DNA of 64,000 nucleotides from the NCBI GenBank assembly GCA_017992455.1, contig JAGOOP010000007.1, forward strand, positions 2,335 through 66,334. The letters are read 5' to 3'. This document shows positions 25,298 through 64,000 of the stretch, piece by piece (the stretch's first letter is position 1; every line of letters begins with the position of its first letter). Below the pieces are notes generated by a model, which was given only the letters and a program-made list of their open reading frames with translations, made no database searches and was not told where the DNA came from. Origin of the DNA: Candidatus Omnitrophota bacterium (GTDB lineage Bacteria > Omnitrophota > Gorgyraeia > Gygaellales > Profunditerraquicolaceae). A program made the translations under genes and the position numbers.

Positions 25298-26371
25298 TTA
25301 CATCCCTGCGACGATCTTTTTCCTGATCTCTTTTTCTATATCGTCGGACAGTTTCTGGTTTTCCCGCAGCGCGTTGATCGCTGCCTCCCTGCCCTGGCCG
25401 ATCTTTTCGTTGTTATACGACATCCACGTGCCTGATTTCTGGATCACCTCGAGGTTCACGCCTGCGTCGATGATGCTTCCTGCCTTATTGATGCCCTGGT
25501 CATGAAGGATATCGAACTCAGCCTCGCGGAACGGCGGCGCGACCTTGTTCTTGACGACCCTGACCCTCACATGGCCGCCGACAACCGCGTCCGCGACCTT
25601 GATGGATGCTATTCTGCGCACGTCAAGCCGCACCGAGGAATAGAATTTGAGCGCGCGGCCGCCGGGAGTCGTCTCGGGATTGCCGAACATGACGCCGATC
25701 TTTTCGCGCAGCTGGTTGATGAATATGACGCACGCGCGCGATTTTGAGATCGCGGCGGTCAGTTTCCTCAGCGCCTGGGACATAAGCCGCGCCTGAAGGC
25801 CCACATGCGAGTCGCCCATCTCTCCTTCGATCTCGGCGCGCGGGGTCAGGGCCGCAACGGAATCGATCACGATAAGGTCAACGGCATTGGACCGGACAAG
25901 GGTCTCGGCGATCTCAAGCGCCTGTTCGCCCGTATCCGGCTGGGAAATAAGCAGTTCGTCGAGGTTGAGCCCGATCTTTTTGGCATAGGTCGCGTCAAAC
26001 GCGTGCTCCGCATCGATGAACGCGGCGACCCCGCCTTTCTTCTGCATTTCCCTGATCGCCGTCAGCGTCAAAGTCGTTTTTCCGGATGCCTCGGGCCCGA
26101 ATATCTCAACAACCCTGCCGCGCGGCAGTCCGCCCGTGCCTAACGCGTAGTCAAGGGTCAGCGATCCTGTCGGGATCACTTCCACATCGACTTTTACCTT
26201 CTGGCCAAGCTTCATGATCGAGCCCTTGCCGAACTGCTTCTCTATATGGGACAGGGCAAGATCAAGCGCTTTCTGGCGTTCGGAACTGTCCTTCGCCGTA
26301 TCTTTTGTCACGTCTCTGGCCTGGACTTCTTTCTGCGCTTCTTTATGCGATTCCTTCTTTTCGAGTGCCAT
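25298..26371 (-). CDS. recA: recombinase RecA
   Basis: [12 protein letters not shown] Walker [10 protein letters not shown] and [27 protein letters not shown] lies 8 nt upstream of the ATG. Confidence 0.97.
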
Positions 26372-27877: not shown

Positions 27878-30800
27878 CTACGCGGTAACTGCTTCTGATT
27901 CTGCGCTCGCCGGAACGCTCGACTCCTGCCCTGCCTTCTTCTCTCCGAACTTCACCGATACGATCTTCGAAACGCCTGATTCCTGCATGGTGATGCCGTA
28001 CATGATGTCGGCGTTGGCAATGGTCTTCTTGTTATGAGTGATGACGATGAACTGCGATGTCTGGCTGAACTCCTGCAGTATCCTGCCGAACCGGTCGACG
28101 TTGGCTTCGTCGAGCGCGGCGTCGATCTCATCAAGAATGCAGAACGGCGACGGTTTCACCTTGAAGATCGCGAATATAAGCGCGATCGCAGCCATTGACT
28201 TCTCCCCGCCTGACAACAACAGAACGTTCTGCAGTTTCTTGCCCGGAGGCCGGCAGATGATCTCGATGCCGGATTCCAGCGGATCCTGCTCGTCGATTAG
28301 ATATACCTGGGCGTCGCCGCCGTTGAACAGGACCCTGAAATAGTTCTTGAACTCCTCGCGCACGCGCTCGAAGGTCTCAAGGAACATCTTTCTGGTCGTG
28401 CGGTTGATCTTCTGTATCGCATCCTGCAGCGACGCTTTGGCATTGACAAGATCCGCCTGCTGCTGGGTCAAAAAGTCATAGCGCTTCTTTAACTCATCAT
28501 ATTCTTCGATAGCGACAAGATTGACCGCGCCGTACGAGCTTAATTTATCCTTGAGCTTCGCGACCTCTTCGTTGAGCATATTTTCGTCGATCCCGTCAAG
28601 GAGCACGGCCGGTTCAGCCGGCGGTTCTGCGGCCGGGGCGGTTTCCGCAGAAAGCTGATCAGCCGCTTGTTGAGCAGGCTCCTGTTCCGGCACGGCCTCC
28701 TGTTTCTGCTCGCCCGCGATCAAAGCGGCGGTCTCCTGCGTATCCAGATCGATCTTATACGACTGCAAAAGCTTTTGCCTGATGCTCTGGTATTTGAATT
28801 CGAGGTCCTTTGCGTCCATCTGCACTTCGTAGAGCTTTTCCTTCACCGCATCCGACTCTTTACGCTGCGCCGCGATATCCTCTTCGATCTGCGCGATCCC
28901 TGCCGCGACCGCCTGAGACTGCGCCTGCGCGTCGATAAGCGACGATTTCAAGGCCTCCATATCGGCCCCGGTCTGCCTGATCTTCTTATGCAGATCCTCT
29001 ATCTCAAGGGTAAAGGCGTCCTGCTTAGCCGACATTTCCTGGGACCGCGCTGCCATCTGCGCGATCTCCGCTTCATCCTGAATGCACGTCTGTTCAAGCG
29101 CCTTCAGGCTGCCTTCGTCAGCGCTGCGCCGCTTGACCAGATTCTCCAGCTCGGTCTTCACCTGCGCGATAACGACAAGCACCTCTTCCTTGATCCGGTT
29201 GTTCAGGTTGATATGTTCCTGAGCTTCGTGGATGGATGTTTCCCATGCCGTATGCTCTTTTTCGAGATTATCAATGTCCGCGCGCAGCCTGGCGAGCGTC
29301 TGCTCGAGCGCAGCCATTTCCTGGCCGGCATCGCCTAATTCCATAACAATGATCTGCGCCTCTTCGCTGATCTTATCGAACTGCTCCTTGACACTCTGCT
29401 GGACCGTCTTCTTGCTGGAAAGCGCGACTTCCTTATCCTGGACCTGCCTGACAAAATCCGCGACCATGCCGCTCAATTCCTGGATCCTGGCTTCTTTACC
29501 AAGCTTCTCGTTTTTGAGCACCGCGATCCGCCCTTCGGCAGCGCGGATGTTCTCCATGACCTTCTGCGCGTCGAGATCGATCGGCTTTGCCTCTCCGGCG
29601 ATGCGGTAACCCTGCAAAGGCTGTGCCGGATATCCCTGCGCTGACTGCTCCTGCGACGGCCCGGCCTGCGCGTCCCCGGTATCCCTGACCTTGACCACAA
29701 GGCCGGTAATGCGCTCGCTCGGCGCTTTATCAAGGTAAATGGTCGCGTTCATGGACTCGCTGATATCGTCATACTGGCTCTTCAGCCGCTCAAGGAACTC
29801 CCGCTGGGATTCAAGCGCATGGCGCTGGCGCTCCATATTCTCCAGGTCCTGATTGATCCCGAGCAGCGATGCATTCTCCGCGTCGAGTTCGGCCTTCATG
29901 GCAGCCAGCCTGTTGCCAAGGTCCGCGTATTCGGTCTCCAGCTGGGAAACCTCTCCGTATATCTGGGCAAGCGATGACTCAAACTGATTTCTTTCTTCCG
30001 ATATCTTGGCCCGTTCAAGCTCCAGACGCTTTTTCCGGGCAAGCAGCACCTGCTCTTTTGAAGTGAGGCCCGACAATTCGTTCTTCGCCTGCGACACCCG
30101 CACCGCCAGGTCCATAATGTTCTTTTTTGCCATCGCGATGCTGTCCGCCGCTGTTTTAATGGCCGCCACGACCGCGCTCAACTGTTCTTCGTTACCGTGC
30201 AAAGCGGCCGTCTTATCCTCGATGCTCCTGGCAATGACCAGGAATTCCTGCCGCAGCCTGCTCAATTTTTCCGTATCCTGGATCAGGCGCTCTTTGGTCT
30301 GCGTGATCTGCGATCCGAGATACTGCTTTGACGAATCGAGCTCTTTTATGCGCTCCGTGTTGAACTCGATATGTTGATTGTCATGGGCGATCGTATTCTC
30401 GAGGTTGACCAGGTCGTTCTTGACCATGGATATCTTCTCTTCATACCCCTTCAGCTCTTCGCTGCGCAAAGAAAGCTTCAGTTCCGCTTCCTGGATCCGG
30501 CACGTAATGGCCTGTTCCTGAGCCTTCAACCCTTCTATCTGCGCAAGGAACGCCGCCTTCTCTTTGGCGAGGTTGTTCTTCTGCACCGCAGCAAGGAACA
30601 ATTCTTTTTTCTTGAGCTCCTCGAACGCCGCCTGATACCGGCGCGCCTTGTTGGCCTGTCGTTCCAGGTAACCGATGGAGCGCTTCACCTCGGCGATGAT
30701 ATCATTGACCCGCAAAAGGTTCTGCTCGGTTTCTTCGAGCCGGCGCAGCGCCTCGCGTTTTTGCGACTTATATTTGGTGATGCCGCTTGCCTCGTCGAAT

Positions 30801-32962
30801 ACCATGCGGCGTTCTTCCGGTTTCGAGCTTAACACAAGGTCGATCTTGCCCTGCGCGATGATCGAATAGCTTTCCGCGCCGACGCCCGTGCCCATCAAAA
30901 GATCAAGGATATCCTTCAACCTGACCTGCGAGCGGTTGAGCAGATATTCGCTGTCGCCGGACCGGAAGATCCTTCTGGTGATCATGACCTCGTCGTGGTC
31001 GTATGAGAAGAACCGCGCCTTGTTATCAAAGGTAAGGCTCACCTCAGCCATGCCCAGCGCCTGCTTGGTGTCGGTGCCGTTGAAGATAACGTCCTCCATC
31101 TGCGTTCCGCGCAGGGATTTGATCGATTGCTCGCCGAGCACCCAGCGGATAGAGTCGAAGATATTGCTGTTATGAACGATGATATCCTGCGCGACGAAAT
31201 TATGGTTCACCGGTATGGAAAGGTCATACACCCATTCAGGCGCAGCGACTTTGCAGACGGAAACCACCTCATCCCAATACACCTGAGAAACGGCCAGCTG
31301 CTTGAGATAATCATGGATGCACCGCGCAAGGCCGGTCAGATCGGCATATTCGGTGATAATATGAAGCGCCTCGGACAACCCCTGCCGCGACGGCAGGCAG
31401 CGGTTTTCATAATACGCGGCGAGTTTTGGGGAATATGTTCTCAGCTTTTTCACGGACACGCCGGACAACTGAACCAGCTTCTTAAATAAGCCGTTCACGC
31501 CCGGAATAAGATCAAAATTGGGGTTCGCTTGGGCATGCATATTTTTGATCCGGTCCAGATCATCCGCTTTCGCGCCGACAAAACGCAAATGGCCGGCCAG
31601 CGTCTTTACATTGTCCAGTCCGTAAATATAAACGGAATAATACGGCCGCCTGGTCTTATTCTCCGTATTGGCTGCATATTTCAGCTTCTTTCGGAGCACT
31701 GATTGCACCCCGAGTCTCAACAATAAACTTCTGACGCCGACTGCAAGGTCATTCGATGCCGTTGCATACTCGATATATGCCGTTTTGTTGCCGCGCGCAC
31801 GCCCAACATCAGTCCGTATATACGCGTCTCCCTCGAATAACGCCGATAAAAATTCACCCGCAATCTCAATGCCGGCATTCTGTATCAATTCCGGCACTTT
31901 CTTTTCGCTCGAACGGCTTTCAATACCGACGCCGAACGCTTTCTCAAGATACTGGCACAATGCGTGAGAAAAAATGATAACATCTTTTGCAGACGCCTTA
32001 TACCGGAATTCCTTCGCTTCAACAGAGAATGCGTCCTGAGCGCACGCAATATAGTCGTCGACAACCGGCTGATCTTCGTTCACAAACCGGACTTGATTTC
32101 CTTTGCTCGTCCTTCCCTCTGCTAACAGATACCCAAGAAAACGGGCGACAGACCTGTTTACGGTTTGAGGCAGACGGAGCGTGCCTGAACTGCGCGATTT
32201 TATACTTTGGACGAATCCGGGCGCCTGTTCACATCCGATACGTTCGAGAGCGGCGCAAAAATCGACGACATTGATCGCCTGCCGGGCAGACGCCGATCTG
32301 ATACATGAAGAATAAGAATTATGAACGGCGGATCGGCACGCTGTCGCTTCCTCCTGCCCGTCGCTTGACTCAAGGAACCGCGCCAGATCTTCCGAGAACG
32401 GGATATACGTCAGGTCTTCTCTCTGAAAACGCTTCAGTATCTCGAAATTATCGATCTTATCGCACGCGTTGACAGGGCTGATGGCCCGCGGGCATGCGAT
32501 AGAAACGCCCGCTTGCAATTCTTCAGCTTTCAATGCGAATACCTGCCCGTCCTTAATGCTGAAGAACGGATGGTAATGCGTTGTCACGACGTTCCTGCCG
32601 GATCGAGTGGTTACGGACAACAGATACTCAGGAGCTTTTCGTTTGATAAATGAATACACGGACTTCGGCTCAAGGGACATGGTGTGCGGGTTCATTGAAA
32701 GCACGCGAATGCCTGCCGGATTGTCCCCTGTCATGACGCCGTCATCGAGCTTCCTGACGTCAGAGGACTGCGCCAGAGCCTTCTCGACCAGGGCGCCGAT
32801 CTTGACCTGAACGCCGTTATCCAGCGTCACCAGTGAATCGTAATGCAGGCATTTCCCACACCCGTTCGGACCCACGACCGCGGTGATGCCGGGCTCGAAA
32901 TCAAGCACGGTCTTGTCCATGAACGATTTAAATCCGACGATCTCGAGCTTTTTAAAATACAT
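27878..32962 (-). CDS. smc: chromosome segregation protein SMC, interrupted by an in-frame intein
   Basis: The N-terminus is MYFKKLEIVGFKSF...GPNGCGK, and it continues after the insert as SNIFDSIRWVLGEQS. There are long coiled coils. The C-terminal head has LSGGEKSMAAIALIFAIF, CILDEIDAALD and QFIVITHN. GGAGGA precedes the ATG. The host protein is 1133 aa after removing the insert. Confidence 0.9.
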   Translation of the reverse strand: MYFKKLEIVGFKSFMDKTVLDFEPGITAVVGPNGCGKCLHYDSLVTLDNGVQVKIGALVEKALAQSSDVRKLDDGVMTGDNPAGIRVLSMNPHTMSLEPKSVYSFIKRKAPEYLLSVTTRSGRNVVTTHYHPFFSIKDGQVFALKAEELQAGVSIACPRAISPVNACDKIDNFEILKRFQREDLTYIPFSEDLARFLESSDGQEEATACRSAVHNSYSSCIRSASARQAINVVDFCAALERIGCEQAPGFVQSIKSRSSGTLRLPQTVNRSVARFLGYLLAEGRTSKGNQVRFVNEDQPVVDDYIACAQDAFSVEAKEFRYKASAKDVIIFSHALCQYLEKAFGVGIESRSSEKKVPELIQNAGIEIAGEFLSALFEGDAYIRTDVGRARGNKTAYIEYATASNDLAVGVRSLLLRLGVQSVLRKKLKYAANTENKTRRPYYSVYIYGLDNVKTLAGHLRFVGAKADDLDRIKNMHAQANPNFDLIPGVNGLFKKLVQLSGVSVKKLRTYSPKLAAYYENRCLPSRQGLSEALHIITEYADLTGLARCIHDYLKQLAVSQVYWDEVVSVCKVAAPEWVYDLSIPVNHNFVAQDIIVHNSNIFDSIRWVLGEQSIKSLRGTQMEDVIFNGTDTKQALGMAEVSLTFDNKARFFSYDHDEVMITRRIFRSGDSEYLLNRSQVRLKDILDLLMGTGVGAESYSIIAQGKIDLVLSSKPEERRMVFDEASGITKYKSQKREALRRLEETEQNLLRVNDIIAEVKRSIGYLERQANKARRYQAAFEELKKKELFLAAVQKNNLAKEKAAFLAQIEGLKAQEQAITCRIQEAELKLSLRSEELKGYEEKISMVKNDLVNLENTIAHDNQHIEFNTERIKELDSSKQYLGSQITQTKERLIQDTEKLSRLRQEFLVIARSIEDKTAALHGNEEQLSAVVAAIKTAADSIAMAKKNIMDLAVRVSQAKNELSGLTSKEQVLLARKKRLELERAKISEERNQFESSLAQIYGEVSQLETEYADLGNRLAAMKAELDAENASLLGINQDLENMERQRHALESQREFLERLKSQYDDISESMNATIYLDKAPSERITGLVVKVRDTGDAQAGPSQEQSAQGYPAQPLQGYRIAGEAKPIDLDAQKVMENIRAAEGRIAVLKNEKLGKEARIQELSGMVADFVRQVQDKEVALSSKKTVQQSVKEQFDKISEEAQIIVMELGDAGQEMAALEQTLARLRADIDNLEKEHTAWETSIHEAQEHINLNNRIKEEVLVVIAQVKTELENLVKRRSADEGSLKALEQTCIQDEAEIAQMAARSQEMSAKQDAFTLEIEDLHKKIRQTGADMEALKSSLIDAQAQSQAVAAGIAQIEEDIAAQRKESDAVKEKLYEVQMDAKDLEFKYQSIRQKLLQSYKIDLDTQETAALIAGEQKQEAVPEQEPAQQAADQLSAETAPAAEPPAEPAVLLDGIDENMLNEEVAKLKDKLSSYGAVNLVAIEEYDELKKRYDFLTQQQADLVNAKASLQDAIQKINRTTRKMFLETFERVREEFKNYFRVLFNGGDAQVYLIDEQDPLESGIEIICRPPGKKLQNVLLLSGGEKSMAAIALIFAIFKVKPSPFCILDEIDAALDEANVDRFGRILQEFSQTSQFIVITHNKKTIANADIMYGITMQESGVSKIVSVKFGEKKAGQESSVPASAESEAVTA
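31169..32851 (-). mobile_element. intein (561 aa) with LAGLIDADG homing-endonuclease domain, inserted in the SMC P-loop
   Basis: Starts at Cys38 (CLHYDSLVTLDNG) and has block B VVTTHYH. LAGLIDADG motifs are FLGYLLAEGR (32114-32143) and FLSALFEGDA. The C-terminal blocks read WVYDLSIPVNHNFVAQDIIVHN, followed by the +1 Ser. Confidence 0.85.
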
Positions 32963-32986: not shown

Positions 32987-33157
32987 TTATGCCTGGGATT
33001 GCTGCTCGATCCACGAGTCGATCTTCTCTTTGCGAAAACGCCATTGCCCGACGAGCTTGAGCGCCGGGATCTTGTTATGCTTGAGCCAGTCGTAAATGGT
33101 CCTGCGGCTTACGCGCAGGTAACCGGAAAGGTCATCTATTGTCATAAGGTCATTCAT
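32987..33157 (-). CDS. excisionase-family (MerR-like) helix-turn-helix DNA-binding protein, 56 aa
   Basis: Below the ORF-track size cutoff, found by hand translation. Reads MNDLMTIDDLSGYLRVSRRTIYDWLKHNKIPALKLVGQWRFRKEKIDSWIEQQSQA. This fits the excisionase-type HTH pattern (L.vs..TiY.w...g.iPa.k.G..wrf....i..W). It ends 24 nt before smc. Confidence 0.6.
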   Translation of the reverse strand: MNDLMTIDDLSGYLRVSRRTIYDWLKHNKIPALKLVGQWRFRKEKIDSWIEQQSQA

Positions 33158-60947: not shown

Positions 60948-61421
60948 TCAGAACTTTGAGGTAAATGCATACATCAGGCGGCCCTTTTCGATGATCGGCT
61001 CGCCCTTCATCCTGAATACCCTGACACTGGCTTTTTTCTTGACCCAGCGCTCGACTTCCTTGGCGCGGTAATACGGATACCATACGTCAAAACCGAATGC
61101 CTCTTTCCATGCTTCGCGAACGACCTCATTTTCGTCGCGCACGGGCTTGGTGCAGAATGAGTTGAACGCGGCGCGGTCGATATGCGTTGAGGCGGGCTGT
61201 ATTCCGGCGGTATCTGCCAGGCGCGGATACTCCATGACCATACCTCTCCATGCGATCGCTGAGAAATCATCATCGGTAACGGCTATCTTGAGCGTGACCG
61301 GCGCGATCGGAGGAATACTTCCCATCACCGGAGCGTGAACAAACATATCCTGCGCGTGCGCGAACGGCTGCAGGATCAGGATGCTCAGGATTATCACTAA
61401 TTGGATGATTGCGGCTGTCAT
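60948..61421 (-). CDS. hypothetical secreted protein
   Basis: The ATG at 61421 is preceded by AAGGGAGA. Signal peptide MTAAIIQLVIILSILILQPFAHA. 157 aa. Confidence 0.5.
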   Translation of the reverse strand: MTAAIIQLVIILSILILQPFAHAQDMFVHAPVMGSIPPIAPVTLKIAVTDDDFSAIAWRGMVMEYPRLADTAGIQPASTHIDRAAFNSFCTKPVRDENEVVREAWKEAFGFDVWYPYYRAKEVERWVKKKASVRVFRMKGEPIIEKGRLMYAFTSKF

Positions 61422-61547
61422 TTTTGTCTCCCTTAAGAATATAACATATAAATAGACAGATTTCAACCTTGAATTGAAATATTTTCAAGTAAAAATAGCA
61501 ATCATAAATTATATATAAGTCTAATATTGAAAGTGATTTATAAAAAA

Positions 61548-61587
61548 ACATCCGCCCAGGCATTCAACCTGCGCGGATGTTTTTAAA
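61548..61587 (-). terminator. intrinsic terminator downstream of the 77-aa ORF
   Basis: ACATCCGC (61548-55) pairs with GCGGATGT (61573-80). On the minus strand the stem is followed by a T7 run. Confidence 0.6.
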
Positions 61588-61601
61588 AAAAATTCTTAAA
61601 A

Positions 61602-61835
61602 TTACATGTTTATACCTACCTGGCCGCTCGATGATATTAAATACGACGTGTAGTGCCAGCTCTTTTCGCCGTACGGATTGAAGCTGAACGTCGGCACAAA
61701 CACCTCCACCGTTCCGTATATCTCGTAATGATCGCCGACTTTTCTCAAAGCCGATTCGATCGATCTTCCGTCAACGGTGCGGATAATAGTATTATACGTG
61801 ACGCCTTGTTCCGGATAGGACGCAAACTGGATCAC
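61602..61835 (-). CDS. hypothetical small protein (77 aa)
   Basis: An ORF with its own downstream terminator. Beta-rich, no motif recognised. Confidence 0.35.
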   Translation of the reverse strand: MIQFASYPEQGVTYNTIIRTVDGRSIESALRKVGDHYEIYGTVEVFVPTFSFNPYGEKSWHYTSYLISSSGQVGINM

Positions 61836-61899
61836 GGTGTTGTCAGGAAGTGTGCCCGAACTGGACGCCAGACGAACTTCACAACTCCAAGTAATACAT

Positions 61900-62283
61900 A
61901 TGGTTGTGAAAATTTACACGCGCAGAAGCAAGAAACAATTAATCCGTTTTGGCGATCCTTTGCCTGAGAAACCTCAGCGGGCAAAGCGTATTTATCAAAA
62001 TGTTATCTACGAAGGCCTGAAACTTCAAGCCTTTATCAATAACGGCTCTACCAGAATAACCTGGGCGCAAGCCCGTAAAGAGTTAAAAATTTCAGAATCC
62101 AAGTTAGCACACTTATTAAAAATAATCAATCAATTACCGCCGGATTTCGTCGAAAACATGAGATCATGCAAAGATCCGGAAGTCCTAAAAATCTTCACTG
62201 GCCGAAGACTGTTGCAAATCTCCCGCCTTAAAACCGAGAAAGAACGCCGGGCAGAGATTGAACACCTATTGCCCAAGGTTTAA
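61900..62283 (+). CDS. ParB-like helix-turn-helix DNA-binding protein lacking the ParB N-terminal domain
   Basis: ATG at 61900 (MVVKIYTRR...). ITWAQARKELKISESKLAHLLKIINQLPPDFVENM resembles the ParB/Spo0J HTH region (LTQEELA..lG.S.s.v...LrLl.LP..v...). 127 aa. Confidence 0.4.
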   Translation: MVVKIYTRRSKKQLIRFGDPLPEKPQRAKRIYQNVIYEGLKLQAFINNGSTRITWAQARKELKISESKLAHLLKIINQLPPDFVENMRSCKDPEVLKIFTGRRLLQISRLKTEKERRAEIEHLLPKV

Positions 62284-62339
62284 GCCTTCTTACCCCTGTA
62301 ATACACCTCTGTTGCCCGTTTTGACCCATTATTACCCTC

Positions 62340-63755
62340 TTAATCATTACTGATTCCAAATATTTCAAAGAATTTCTCAGCAAAAGATCGTTGGTAGCTG
62401 TCTTTAAAATCTTTGGCCTTAGCTTCATTAGACATGTCTTCCTTGATAAATCCATAACAATTTACGCAATATTCAACAACTATCTCGTTATTTTCTTTGA
62501 GGGTCAATCGTTTTGTTTCCCTCTCATAACCCGAGAAAGAATCTTTAACTTTCTTGGGTTCATCTTCAAAGATATAAAATTCTAAGCCATGTATTTCCTT
62601 TTTTATAACATCAAAATTTATTCTCATGCCAAGCCAAATATTATTCTTGTTTTTTGGATATCGTTCATAAAAACTAACTAGCTCTTTCTCTGCTCTAGTT
62701 AAAATCTGCTCCACACATCTATGATAAAAATCAACAAGCTCATTTTTATCCAATATCTCTTTTTTTCTGCGATATTCTTCCAAAGCAGTCGCAAAATCCT
62801 CTTGCCGATGAACATCTCGAGCATTCGCACAAATATTACCACTGCTTCCTATATAGGCCCCGAGATCATCGCTCAACTTAGCTATTTTGACAGGATCGCT
62901 CTCTAAAAGAATGTTCTTAAGAACCTCTATCGGCTCTTCAAGGTCAAACAAAATACTCTGCGCGTGTTTCTTTATATTTGAAACTTCTTTCTTAATATCG
63001 CAATAAAAATTTGGAATCGTCGTATCAGCATAAAACTCTTCTATTTTGTCGATGTTAATTCTTCCAAGGTTAATATCAGCAATATAATGTGAAATCTTTT
63101 GATAGTGATCAACGTCGATTTCTAAATCTGAAGTCAAAACCTTTCTTAGAAGATCAGCGCGGACACTCTCTTTGTCGATAATTACATTTAATAATTTTGT
63201 TAAGTTATTAAGTAAAAAGTTTCTTTGCCGCGTCAATACCTCAAGACCATTTTCAGCTTCAGTCCAATATTCTTTAAAATACTCGTCAACCAAATCCGGC
63301 AGTTTATTAATATCAATAGCTTGGCGTATAAGTTTATCCAACCTTTCACTTTTTAAAGTATTGTAGATACTATCCAAAGACGTTGGGAGAAATCGACCGT
63401 TGATAATAACCATACAACCATCGACATAAACTTCTTTTAAGTCATAAATATGCTTGTACGGCTCATTGAATGATTGTTTTATTTGATTTGCAAGTGCAAA
63501 ATAACTCGAGCTGCCAGAAGAAGAGCCAGTAACATCTCCAGATTTAACGATAACCGCAACATAATTAATTTTCTTAAATTTGGCGTCGAGCTCTTTGCAA
63601 ACAATGTCTTTTCCTTTTTCATTGCTATGGTGATGAAGTATTGGATCAATAAACCCCATTTTAGACAATAACGGGATTAACACTAACTCCCGGAGGTCTT
63701 TTTCGTTTAATTCTTGAAGCAATTGAATTTTCTTTTCTTTTGTTAACGCTGTCAT
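62340..63755 (-). CDS. Mrr-like PD-(D/E)xK nuclease-fold N-terminal domain protein with large uncharacterised helical C-terminus
   Basis: The ATG at 63755 is preceded by GAAGG; the track start at 63761 is a TTG. The N-terminus LRELVLIPLLSKMGFIDP...EKGKDIVC...NYVAVIVKSGD fits the Mrr_cat pattern (E...D...xK). The remaining ~340 aa are K/E/N/D-rich with no recognised motif. Very low G+C. Confidence 0.6.
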   Translation of the reverse strand: MTALTKEKKIQLLQELNEKDLRELVLIPLLSKMGFIDPILHHHSNEKGKDIVCKELDAKFKKINYVAVIVKSGDVTGSSSGSSSYFALANQIKQSFNEPYKHIYDLKEVYVDGCMVIINGRFLPTSLDSIYNTLKSERLDKLIRQAIDINKLPDLVDEYFKEYWTEAENGLEVLTRQRNFLLNNLTKLLNVIIDKESVRADLLRKVLTSDLEIDVDHYQKISHYIADINLGRINIDKIEEFYADTTIPNFYCDIKKEVSNIKKHAQSILFDLEEPIEVLKNILLESDPVKIAKLSDDLGAYIGSSGNICANARDVHRQEDFATALEEYRRKKEILDKNELVDFYHRCVEQILTRAEKELVSFYERYPKNKNNIWLGMRINFDVIKKEIHGLEFYIFEDEPKKVKDSFSGYERETKRLTLKENNEIVVEYCVNCYGFIKEDMSNEAKAKDFKDSYQRSFAEKFFEIFGISND

Positions 63756-63776
63756 TTCCAACCTTCTACATGTTCA

Positions 63777-64000
63777 TTAAAAACCATATTTTTCTTTTCT
63801 TAGCTTAAATGCCGCTTCTCCGCCTTCCATAACTTTTGTTATTTCGTTACGAATATTGCTGATATCAATCGCGCCCAGATGTTTAATCTCGCCTTTTGAT
63901 TGATCGGTGGTAATCTTATAGTCACAACAAACAACGAGTTCCGCGTCCCCATTAACGACAATATTGGCATTATGGCTGGCAAATATTAATTGTCTTTTCT
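63777..64000 (-). CDS. C-terminal end of an ABC/Rad50-SMC-type ATPase (partial; gene continues past the window end)
   Basis: Hand translation gives ...KRQLIFASHNANIVVNGDAELVVCCDYKITTDQSKGEIKHLGAIDISNIRNEITKVMEGGEAAFKLRKEKYGF*. The QxIxxSHN...GDAE segment looks like the H-loop region of SMC-like ATPases. The stop lies 21 nt before the next gene. Confidence 0.45.
   Translation of the reverse strand, partial: KRQLIFASHNANIVVNGDAELVVCCDYKITTDQSKGEIKHLGAIDISNIRNEITKVMEGGEAAFKLRKEKYGF

What the first reader, a model, noticed from the sequence alone, without database searches (positions are those of the whole stretch)
31169..32851. Full-size LAGLIDADG intein splitting the Walker A P-loop of SMC
The 1694-aa SMC ORF reads GPNGCGK | CLHYDSLVTL ... 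QDIIVHN | SNIFDSIRWVLGEQS. Removing exactly 561 codons (Cys38 to Asn598) restores the universal SMC N-terminus GPNG(S)GKSNIxDxIRWVLGEQS and leaves a normal-sized 1133-aa host.

The insert has all the splicing hallmarks: Cys1, a TxxH block (VVTTHYH), a terminal HN, and a +1 Ser. It also carries two LAGLIDADG motifs (FLGYLLAEGR, FLSALFEGDA), so the homing endonuclease may still be active. Hand counts give about 30/60 G+C at two sites inside the insert, against 34/60 in flanking core genes.

The ATP-binding loop of the condensin ATPase is physically interrupted, so SMC function depends on protein splicing. I cannot check here whether this insertion site is already catalogued.
Basis: partly seen in the sequence, partly recalled or inferred. 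Interest (0 to 1): 0.8.

Follow-up and report, generated by a model that had tools for sequence, protein, structure and literature searches.

The report
Homing-endonuclease intein in bacterial SMC P-loop
The chromosome-condensing ATPase SMC of this Omnitrophota bacterium is interrupted, inside its ATP-binding loop, by a real 561-residue self-splicing intein with an apparently intact homing endonuclease; this is an ordinary kind of mobile element in a host protein and phylum where it is barely documented.

Summary
ORF 27878..32962(-) encodes 1694 aa. Residues 38-598 (window 31169..32851) are a 561-aa insert between Lys and Ser of Walker A (GPNGCGK|C...HN|SN).

Removing it gives a 1133-aa SMC whose junction matches the nearest intein-free orthologues (1137 and 1142 aa, about 80% identical).

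The insert hits the Pfam and NCBIfam intein models and LAGLIDADG_3. Its AF2 model (pLDDT 91) matches full-size HE-inteins: TliVMA, PI-PkoII, PI-PfuI and PI-SceI.

All splicing residues (Cys1, TxxH, block F Asp/His, HN, Ser+1) and all endonuclease residues (Glu245, Lys317, Asp342) are invariant across 14 homologues. dN/dS is 0.15 for the intein and 0.12 for the HE core.

The same site holds homologous inteins in 47 reference genomes from six bacterial phyla and several archaeal lineages. Some cross-phylum pairs have inteins more alike than their exteins, which points to horizontal spread.

Verdict: a genuine class-1 intein that is probably still mobile. It is a new member of a known kind. P-loop inteins are common, and archaeal SMC inteins were noted in 2016. 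Splicing and cleavage remain untested. Interest is modest.

The parts
27878..32962 (-). smc precursor ORF (1694 aa, intein included)
   Evidence: TIGR02168 SMC_prok_B scores 846 bits against a cut-off of 567, and Pfam SMC_N scores 8e-68. It is identical to database protein P0097, from an NCBI MAG labelled Candidatus Omnitrophica.
32852..32962 (-). N-extein, aa 1-37, ending in the first part of Walker A (GPNGCGK)
   Evidence: It aligns residue for residue with the intein-free orthologues P0099 and P0100.
31169..32851 (-). Intein, 561 aa (precursor residues 38-598)
   Evidence: Pfam PF14890 and PF14528. TIGR01445 and TIGR01443. AF2 pLDDT 91 and pTM 0.90. Foldseek hits 7qss at 1.5e-26 and 2cw7 at 6.5e-25.
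32477..32851 (-). N-terminal splicing (Hint) lobe, intein residues 1-125, with the Cys1 codon TGC at 32849..32851 and block B THYH at 32570..32581
   Evidence: A 125-residue stretch (52 bits) aligns to the PhoCDC21-1 intein 6rpq, whole-sequence E 1.7e-21. Foldseek gives 31-32% identity to 6rpq and 6rpp over about 125 columns. C1, T91 and H94 are invariant in 14 homologues. dN/dS is 0.09.
32156..32476 (-). Helical insert domain, intein residues 126-232. It is probably an accessory DNA-recognition region
   Evidence: AF2 secondary structure. This is the most variable part, with 65% identity to P0098 and dN/dS 0.22. The function is inferred only by analogy with the accessory domains of PI-PkoII and PI-SceI.
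31577..32155 (-). LAGLIDADG endonuclease core, intein residues 233-425. Motif 1 ARFLGYLLAEG lies at 32114..32146 (Glu245). The block D Lys317 lies within 31889..31909. Motif 2 FLSALFEGDAY lies at 31820..31852 (Asp342)
   Evidence: Pfam LAGLIDADG_3 at 1.7e-14. E245, K317 and D342 are invariant. The fold matches PI-PfuI, I-OnuI and I-DmoI. dN/dS is 0.12.
31286..31576 (-). C-terminal helical domain, intein residues 426-522
   Evidence: AF2 helices 429-520. It is 90% identical to P0098 with dN/dS 0.11. It is retained in the 288-aa mini-intein derivative P0036, which has lost the HE core.
31169..31285 (-). C-terminal splicing lobe, intein residues 523-561, with blocks F and G (WVYDLSIPVNHNFVAQDIIVHN, 31169..31234)
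   Evidence: D543, H550, H560 and N561 are invariant. TIGR01443 passes its cut-off.
27878..31168 (-). C-extein. It starts with the +1 Ser codon AGC (31166..31168), which is the Walker A Ser. It also carries the signature motif LSGGEK (28199..28216) and Walker B ILDEID (within 28109..28138)
   Evidence: The extein dN/dS against P0098 is 0.09.

Best explanation
This is a class-1 (Cys1) protein-splicing intein that carries a LAGLIDADG homing endonuclease. It sits in frame between Lys37 and the Ser of the SMC Walker A motif (GPNGCGK|S).

**Splicing (inferred from the standard mechanism; every required residue is present)**
1. Cys1 attacks the Lys37 carbonyl in an N-S acyl shift, assisted by block B Thr91 and His94.
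2. The hydroxyl of Ser+1 takes over the N-extein, giving a branched ester.
3. Asn561 cyclises with help from His560 and block F Asp543 and His550, releasing the intein.
4. An O-N shift restores the native Lys-Ser bond and an intact P-loop.

The unspliced precursor has 561 residues inside the nucleotide-binding loop. SMC ATPase function should therefore require splicing.

**Homing (inferred)**
- The excised protein of about 63 kDa is a monomeric, two-motif LAGLIDADG enzyme.
- It would cut intein-free smc alleles across the sequence encoding GPNGxGK|SN.
- Double-strand-break repair would then copy it in.
- The near-universal target would explain its spread across phyla and domains.

In this lineage the intein was inherited vertically since the split from the P0098/L003 species. 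The next-closest relatives lack it.
For: **Boundaries and restored junction**
- establish the boundaries and show that removing the insert restores the junction seen in intein-free orthologues.

**Family and fold**
- Family models hit the insert.
- Sequence similarity reaches solved inteins: the PhoCDC21-1 P-loop intein at 1.7e-21 and the VMA HE-inteins.
- The AF2 model has pLDDT 91.
- Foldseek finds TliVMA at 1.5e-26 with TM 0.82, plus PI-PkoII, PI-PfuI and PI-SceI.

**Conservation and selection**
- The catalytic residues of both activities are invariant in 14 homologues that share only 36-55% identity with the window intein.
- Purifying selection acts on the intein (omega 0.15), on the HE core (omega 0.12) and on the exteins (omega 0.09) since the intein-bearing sister diverged.
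- The host gene has therefore stayed functional with the intein in place.

**Distribution**
- The same site and family occur in 47 GTDB species.
- About 55 of the best 150 cluster representatives start at residue 35-46 of their protein.
- The distribution is sporadic. Only 2 of the 120 closest SMC homologues carry the intein.

**Mobility**
- Intein identity exceeds extein identity in cross-phylum pairs, for example 62% against 41% for Chloroflexia against Acidobacteriota. An archaeal copy is 40-44% identical to Omnitrophota inteins while the exteins are only 23-26% identical.
- In the NJ tree the inteins of Acidobacteriota and Chloroflexota are each polyphyletic.
- The +1 Ser codon is AGY in 38 of 44 intein-bearing alleles but in 55 of 118 intein-free alleles. 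This fits target preference or co-conversion.
Against: - No experiment shows splicing or DNA cleavage.
- The conservation of the HE could reflect a structural need for correct folding or splicing rather than nuclease activity.
- A natural HE-less derivative exists (P0036), so the endonuclease is lost in some lineages.
- dS of the intein (0.74) is similar to that of the extein (0.96) against the sister species. There is thus no sign of recent homing in this lineage.
- The composition contrast is weak at the level of the window.
- The codon association is not corrected for shared ancestry.
- The NJ tree has no support values.
Confidence: 0.9

Rival explanations
1. The intein still splices, but its endonuclease is no longer an active homing enzyme. 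On this reading the element is a fixed, immobile passenger. It persists because only a precise deletion could remove it from an essential P-loop.
For: - dS of the intein and of the extein against the sister species are similar, which indicates vertical descent.
- Mini-intein derivatives at the same site have lost the HE core (P0036).
- Only 2 of the 120 nearest SMCs carry the intein. Many close intein-free alleles have therefore remained uninvaded.
Against: - The catalytic residues Glu245, Lys317 and Asp342 are invariant across divergent homologues.
- The HE core has omega 0.12, as low as the splicing lobes.
- The cross-phylum and cross-domain distribution, with intein identity above extein identity, requires mobility at least in the recent history of the family.
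Confidence: 0.3
2. Splicing is conditional and acts as a post-translational switch on SMC. In this host the junction reads C-G-K-C. Cys(-3) of the N-extein and the catalytic Cys1 thus form a CxxC pair that could close into a disulfide (a 'redox trap'). That would hold SMC inactive under oxidising conditions.
For: - The sequence GPNGCGK|C is present in the window and in most bacterial intein-bearing alleles.
- A Cys(-3)/Cys1 disulfide controls intein activity in an engineered Ssp DnaE intein. A native one controls the Pyrococcus abyssi MoaA intein (PMC3922620).
- A DnaB helicase intein has been reported as an oxidative-stress sensor (title of PMC6195587).
Against: - Cys at -3 is conserved at 90% or more in intein-free Omnitrophota SMCs. 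It is therefore a host-lineage trait, not an adaptation to the intein.
- Many intein-bearing alleles have Ser, Thr or Ala at -3.
- No data on disulfide formation exist.
- The neighbouring genes (EtfAB with a ferredoxin domain, acyl-CoA dehydrogenase) suggest an anaerobe with a reducing cytoplasm.
Confidence: 0.12
3. The insert is an assembly or binning artefact, or smc is a dead gene disrupted by a decayed element.
For: - The window comes from a metagenome-assembled genome.
- One related database entry (P0024) looks chimeric.
Against: - The same precursor architecture appears on independent contigs from other samples (L002 from a Logan run, L003 from GenBank).
- It also appears in 47 species.
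- The reading frame is open for 1694 codons.
- Both intein and exteins are under strong purifying selection.
Confidence: 0.02

Closest known systems
P-loop inteins of archaeal MCM/CDC21 (PhoCDC21-1 and PabCDC21-1, PDB 6rpq and 6rpp; 'MCM-a' site)
   Same: - They insert directly after the Walker A Lys, with Cys1 and a +1 Ser.
- They give the best sequence match to the N-splicing lobe, at 1.7e-21, with 31-32% identity in the Foldseek alignment.
- Full-length MCM P-loop inteins were recovered as outgroups (GDPGVAK|C...HN|SQ).
   Different: - The host protein is the AAA+ helicase MCM, not an ABC-type SMC head.
- The crystallised forms are mini-inteins of about 168 aa without an endonuclease.
- They form a separate clade in the NJ tree.
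Full-size LAGLIDADG inteins with solved structures: TliVMA and PhoVMA (7qss, 7qst), PI-PkoII (2cw7), PI-PfuI (1dq3) and PI-SceI (1vde)
   Same: - The architecture is the same: a Hint splicing domain interrupted by a two-motif LAGLIDADG endonuclease plus accessory DNA-binding domains.
- Foldseek E-values range from 1e-26 to 1e-10, with TM up to 0.82.
- The HE part also aligns by sequence to the VMA inteins.
   Different: - Overall identity is only 11-20%.
- The hosts differ (V-ATPase A, DNA polymerase, RNR).
- The helical domains at intein residues 126-232 and 426-522 have no assigned counterpart that I could test.
SMC inteins of archaea, noted in the survey of Novikova et al. 2016 (PMC4760082)
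   Same: - The host family is the same. The paper states that the archaeal structural maintenance of chromosomes ATPase contains inteins.
- It also states that P-loop insertion is common in ATPases.
- I found archaeal SMC inteins at the identical site, 29-35% identical to this one. They occur in Iainarchaeum, Micrarchaeota, Woese-, Nano- and Pacearchaeota and Methanosarcinales.
   Different: - The paper's supplementary tables with sites and species are not held. I therefore could not confirm that its cases are at this site.
- Bacterial SMC is not among its top-15 bacterial hosts.
- Full-text searches found no paper describing a bacterial SMC intein.
Conditional P-loop inteins and the Cys(-3)/Cys1 redox trap (Pho RadA, M. 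smegmatis DnaB, Pab MoaA)
   Same: - The intein sits in the P-loop of a DNA-transaction ATPase.
- Here the junction CGK|C gives the same Cys(-3)-x-x-Cys1 spacing as the described redox trap.
   Different: - No evidence of conditional splicing exists here.
- Cys(-3) predates the intein in this lineage.

Membership tests
Intein (class 1, Hint superfamily) | Hint-fold splicing domain split into N- and C-terminal lobes | tested here: met
   Pfam Intein_splicing at 8e-23 spans residues 47-598. TIGR01445 and TIGR01443 exceed their cut-offs. Mini-intein structures align to the N-terminal lobe at rmsd 1.6-2.6 A.
Intein (class 1, Hint superfamily) | Block A nucleophile (Cys or Ser at position 1) and block B TxxH | tested here: met
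   Cys1, Thr91 and His94 are present. They are invariant in 14 homologues.
Intein (class 1, Hint superfamily) | Block F Asp and His, a terminal His-Asn, and a +1 Cys, Ser or Thr on the C-extein | tested here: met
   D543, H550, H560 and N561 are invariant. The +1 residue is Ser, or Thr in P0036.
Intein (class 1, Hint superfamily) | In-frame insertion at a conserved host site, with intein-free orthologues whose sequence equals the ligated exteins | tested here: met
   P0099 and P0100 (1137 and 1142 aa) read GPNGCGKSN(I/V)FDSIRWVLGEQS. The DNA junction was compared.
Intein (class 1, Hint superfamily) | Autocatalytic excision with extein ligation | not testable with these tools
   Indirect evidence only. 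The exteins have stayed under purifying selection (omega 0.09) while carrying the intein.
LAGLIDADG homing endonuclease (intein-encoded, monomeric two-motif type) | Two LAGLIDADG helices, each ending in a catalytic acidic residue | tested here: met
   ARFLGYLLAEG carries Glu245 and FLSALFEGDAY carries Asp342. Both residues are invariant.
LAGLIDADG homing endonuclease (intein-encoded, monomeric two-motif type) | Pseudo-symmetric alpha-beta-beta-alpha-beta-beta-alpha core fold | tested here: met
   Pfam LAGLIDADG_3 at 1.7e-14. Foldseek matches PI-PfuI, I-Tsp061I, I-OnuI and I-DmoI. The strand and helix order appears in the AF2 model for residues 233-419.
LAGLIDADG homing endonuclease (intein-encoded, monomeric two-motif type) | Site-specific cleavage of the intein-free allele, followed by homing | not testable with these tools
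   Indirect evidence only: HE core omega 0.12, cross-phylum incongruence and bias in the +1 codon.
Bacterial SMC (Smc-ScpAB condensin ATPase) | ABC-type head with Walker A, Walker B and signature motifs, and a whole-protein match to the SMC equivalog model | tested here: met
   TIGR02168 scores 846 bits against a cut-off of 567. SMC_N scores 8e-68. GPNGCGK|S, LSGGEK and ILDEID are located.
Bacterial SMC (Smc-ScpAB condensin ATPase) | Globular hinge dimerisation domain (Pfam SMC_hinge PF06470) between two long coiled-coil arms | tested here: not met
   - There is no PF06470 hit for the host or for the orthologues P0103 and P0130, even at E up to 10.
- None of the 120 nearest homologues lists PF06470.
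- No solved hinge matches the host by sequence.
- AF2 of P0099 shows only a low-confidence apex of about 55 residues.
Bacterial SMC (Smc-ScpAB condensin ATPase) | Partnership with the kleisin ScpA and with ScpB | not tested
   The genome beyond the window is not available. No scpA or scpB was seen among the 20 further window ORFs scanned.

The most novel reading that the evidence does not exclude
One intein family has moved repeatedly between bacterial phyla and between bacteria and archaea, using the near-universal DNA that encodes GPNGxGK|SN of SMC as its homing site. In Omnitrophota, where the host already has Cys at -3, the junction CGK|C would work as a natural CxxC redox trap. Activation of the chromosome-condensing ATPase would then depend on the cell's redox state.
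Probability: 0.1. Interest if true: 0.6.

Novelty: new member of a known kind. Interest (0 to 1): 0.3.

Why it matters
- The finding adds SMC, the core of the bacterial condensin, to the bacterial DNA-transaction ATPases that carry a P-loop intein. These already include DnaB, RecA and clamp loaders.
- It shows that a single family occupies this site in at least six bacterial phyla and several archaeal lineages.
- This supports the view that P-loops are preferred, hard-to-lose homing sites. The intein here uses the essential Walker A Ser as its +1 nucleophile.
- The family gives a compact test case for inter-domain homing and for target-site immunity (AGY against TCN Ser codons).
- In practice, automated annotation calls these genes 'AAA family ATPase' or 'LAGLIDADG family homing endonuclease, partial'. 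SMC can therefore be missed or mis-sized in MAG surveys of Omnitrophota.
- It does not change what is known about how inteins work.

Tried and rejected
1. **Cys(-3) as an intein-specific adaptation: rejected.** Cys35 is conserved at 90% or more in 70 intein-free Omnitrophota SMCs. Many intein-bearing alleles have Ser, Thr or Ala there.
2. **Strong compositional foreignness: not supported.** The GC3 of the intein is 0.15 below its host gene but only 1.2 sd below the window's genes.
3. **A second intein in the window: none found.** phmmer and a family HMM were run against all six-frame ORFs. The RecA encoded at 25298..26371 is intein-free.
4. **Literature on bacterial or Omnitrophota SMC inteins.** Five full-text searches found only the 2016 survey sentence on archaeal SMC. 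That paper's supplementary tables are not held.
5. **DNA of the intein-free orthologue P0099.** It could not be fetched because the sample file is too large. P0100/L001 was used instead.
6. **AF2 of the full-length intein-free orthologue.** This was meant to place the insertion site on the head and to inspect the hinge. The model has low confidence (pLDDT 69, head under 50), so it is used only as a weak hint.
7. **The first intein search missed the window's own protein and P0098**. This is a limit of the word index, not biology.
Full report
**1. The observation**

The window holds one long ORF on the minus strand, 27878..32962, of 1694 aa.
- CLHYDS begins at residue 38 and IIVHN ends at residue 598. 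That is exactly 561 codons, window 31169..32851. Deleting them leaves 1133 aa.
- The composition remark holds in direction but is modest. Intein GC is 51.6% against 55.4% for the exteins, and GC3 is 0.59 against 0.73.
- The same GC3 gap appears in the sister species.
- Among 50 genes of the window (GC3 0.68 ± 0.07) the intein is only 1.2 sd low.

**2. What the insert is**

Family models:
- Pfam finds Intein_splicing (8e-23, spanning residues 47-598) and LAGLIDADG_3 (1.7e-13). SMC_N is split around them.
- NCBIfam finds intein_Nterm and intein_Cterm above their cut-offs. The whole protein passes the SMC equivalog TIGR02168 at 846 bits against a cut-off of 567.

Solved structures by sequence:
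- The N-terminal lobe aligns over 125 residues to the Pyrococcus CDC21/MCM P-loop intein 6rpq (E 1.7e-21; 31% identity in the Foldseek alignment).
- The middle part matches the endonuclease of the Thermococcus and Pyrococcus VMA inteins.

Predicted structure:
- An AF2 model built on 38 homologues is confident, with pLDDT 91 and pTM 0.90.
- Its best PDB matches are full-size homing-endonuclease inteins: TliVMA 7qss (1.5e-26, TM 0.82), PI-PkoII 2cw7, PI-PfuI 1dq3 and PI-SceI. Free LAGLIDADG enzymes and mini-inteins follow.

From the model I divide the intein into five parts:

| Part | Intein residues |
|---|---|
| N-splicing lobe | 1-125 |
| Helical insert | 126-232 |
| LAGLIDADG core | 233-425 |
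| Second helical domain | 426-522 |
| C-splicing lobe | 523-561 |

**3. Intein-free alleles and relatives**

- A search with the spliced host found the window's own protein (P0097, a Candidatus Omnitrophica MAG). It also found an intein-bearing sister (P0098, exteins 85% identical).
- The next hits are the intein-free orthologues P0099 (1137 aa), P0100 (1142 aa) and P0101 at 72-80% identity. Their sequence across the site is GPNGCGKSN(I/V)FDSIRWVLGEQS.
- Only 2 of the 120 nearest SMCs carry the intein.
- Gene order is shared between intein-bearing and intein-free loci: etfB, etfA, a small HTH_17 gene and then smc.
- The neighbourhood is core chromosome, with hisD, alaS, recX, htrA, recA, recG, mfd, secDF and trpE.

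**4. Conservation and selection**

- In 14 complete homologues (36-55% identical to the window intein) the invariant residues include Cys1, Thr91 and His94 (TxxH).
- Also invariant are Glu245 and Asp342 (the two LAGLIDADG acids), Lys317 (block D), Asp543 and His550 (block F), and His560-Asn561.
- All complete copies have the junction GK|C...HN|S or T.
- Against P0098, dN/dS is 0.15 for the intein and 0.09 for the exteins.
- By domain, dN/dS is:

| Domain | dN/dS |
|---|---|
| N-splicing lobe | 0.09 |
| Helical insert | 0.22 |
| HE core | 0.12 |
| C-helical domain | 0.11 |
| C-splicing lobe | 0.24 |

- Both the splicing and the endonuclease parts are therefore maintained. The host gene has stayed under constraint while carrying the insert, which implies that splicing works.
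- dS is 0.74 for the intein and 0.96 for the extein. This fits vertical co-inheritance since the split from P0098.

**5. Distribution**

- A scan of one genome per GTDB species found homologous inteins at the identical SMC site in 47 species.
- The bacterial hosts are Omnitrophota, Planctomycetota, Acidobacteriota, Rokubacteria/Methylomirabilia, Chloroflexota and Armatimonadota.
- The archaeal hosts are Iainarchaeum, Micrarchaeota, Woese-, Nano- and Pacearchaeota and Methanosarcinales.
- The next-best matches are inteins placed after the Walker A Lys of other ATPases: MCM, a HerA-like ATPase, RecA and DnaB.
- In the library of 1.84 billion representatives, 167 clusters match at E ≤ 1e-30. About 55 of the best 150 start at residue 35-46 of their protein, as expected for this site.
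- An NJ tree without support values puts all SMC inteins in one clade, with an archaeal branch and a bacterial branch. One archaeal copy (L029) sits with the Omnitrophota copies. Acidobacteriota and Chloroflexota inteins are each polyphyletic.
- Several cross-phylum pairs have inteins more alike than their exteins, for example 62% against 41%. The archaeal L029 intein is 40-44% identical to Omnitrophota inteins with exteins at 23-26%. This indicates horizontal transfer.

**6. Homing site**

- The intein-free allele L001 reads GGCCCCAACGGCTGCGGAAAA|TCTAATATTTTCGATTCC.
- The +1 Ser codon is AGY in 38 of 44 intein-bearing alleles, including all 15 of the Omnitrophota-type alleles.
- It is AGY in only 55 of 118 intein-free GPNGCGKSNIFD alleles from metagenomes. 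Fisher's test gives 5e-6.
- AGY and TCN cannot interconvert by a single substitution. The bias therefore fits either a target preference of the endonuclease or co-conversion of the flank.
- The sequences are not phylogenetically independent, so this is only suggestive.

**7. Mechanism**

- Splicing should follow the standard class-1 pathway given under the best explanation. Each step is inferred from the residues present, not shown.
- The +1 nucleophile is the Walker A Ser itself. This explains why the site is both highly conserved, making it a good homing target, and intolerant of imprecise loss.
- The unspliced precursor cannot form a P-loop. This is an inference from established knowledge of Walker A.

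**8. Rivals**

- An inactive endonuclease is possible. A natural 288-aa mini-intein exists at this site (P0036). However, this rival is disfavoured by the invariant active site and the low omega.
- A redox-conditional switch is suggested by the CGK|C junction, which has the spacing of the described Cys(-3)/Cys1 trap (PMC3922620). But Cys(-3) is a trait of intein-free Omnitrophota SMCs too and is absent from many intein-bearing alleles.
- An artefact or pseudogene is excluded for practical purposes.

**9. Comparison with what is known**

- P-loop inteins are a well-known hot spot. Novikova et al. 2016 state that the archaeal SMC ATPase contains inteins. Their tables are not held.
- I found no paper describing a bacterial SMC intein.
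- Database names for these proteins are generic.
- This is therefore a new, well-supported member of a known kind. It is not a new kind.

**10. Side observations**

- The host and all its close orthologues lack a detectable SMC hinge domain. A low-confidence AF2 model shows two long helices joined by an apex of about 55 residues. For that reason I file the host as SMC by head and equivalog score, with the hinge criterion not met.
- Other items are listed separately under things noticed in passing.

Noticed in passing
window ~29590-29770(-), apex between the two coiled-coil arms of SMC; also P0099 residues 506-560: The host SMC and all 120 nearest Omnitrophota orthologues show no SMC_hinge (PF06470), even at E up to 10, and no sequence match to solved hinges. 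A conserved segment of about 55 residues (ESMNATIYLDKxPSExITGLVVK...GEAKPIDLDAQ) replaces it. AF2 of P0099 is of low confidence there. A phylum-wide 'mini-hinge' SMC may deserve its own study.
   Followed up: partly
window 32987..33157(-): A 56-aa HTH_17 (excisionase/MerR-like) gene lies 24 nt upstream of smc. It is conserved at the same position in intein-bearing and intein-free relatives (L001, L002 and the P0099 contig). Database entry P0033 is annotated as one protein that fuses it to smc.
   Followed up: partly
window 61400..64000, including ORF 62340..63761(-): The last 2.6 kb drop to 33-43% GC, against 54% for the window. The 473-aa ORF there has GC3 0.31 and no Pfam hit. It may be foreign DNA.
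   Followed up: partly
L047, L048, L049 (Nano- and Woesearchaeota), junction region: These archaeal SMC inteins read GPNGSGKS|CHYDT...HN|SN. Either they start with Ser1 followed by Cys, or they sit one residue downstream. Both would be a variant of the same site.
   Followed up: no
P0024 (Candidatus Rokubacteria, 638 aa): The SMC N-extein and intein run, near the intein's C-terminus, into GyrB-like sequence (...HIRTLLLTFFFRQ...FIAQPPLYKV). This may be an assembly chimera or a recombination between related inteins in two genes.
   Followed up: no
P0036 (836 aa, metagenome): This is a 288-aa mini-intein at the same SMC site. It has lost the LAGLIDADG core but keeps the C-terminal helical domain (NPN.DLIP...KLAAYYENRCLPSR) and has Thr at +1.
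   Followed up: partly
window 25298..26371(-): The recA gene lies about 1.5 kb from smc, with a GGDEF gene between them. It is intein-free, although RecA P-loop inteins related to the SMC intein exist in other phyla.
   Followed up: no
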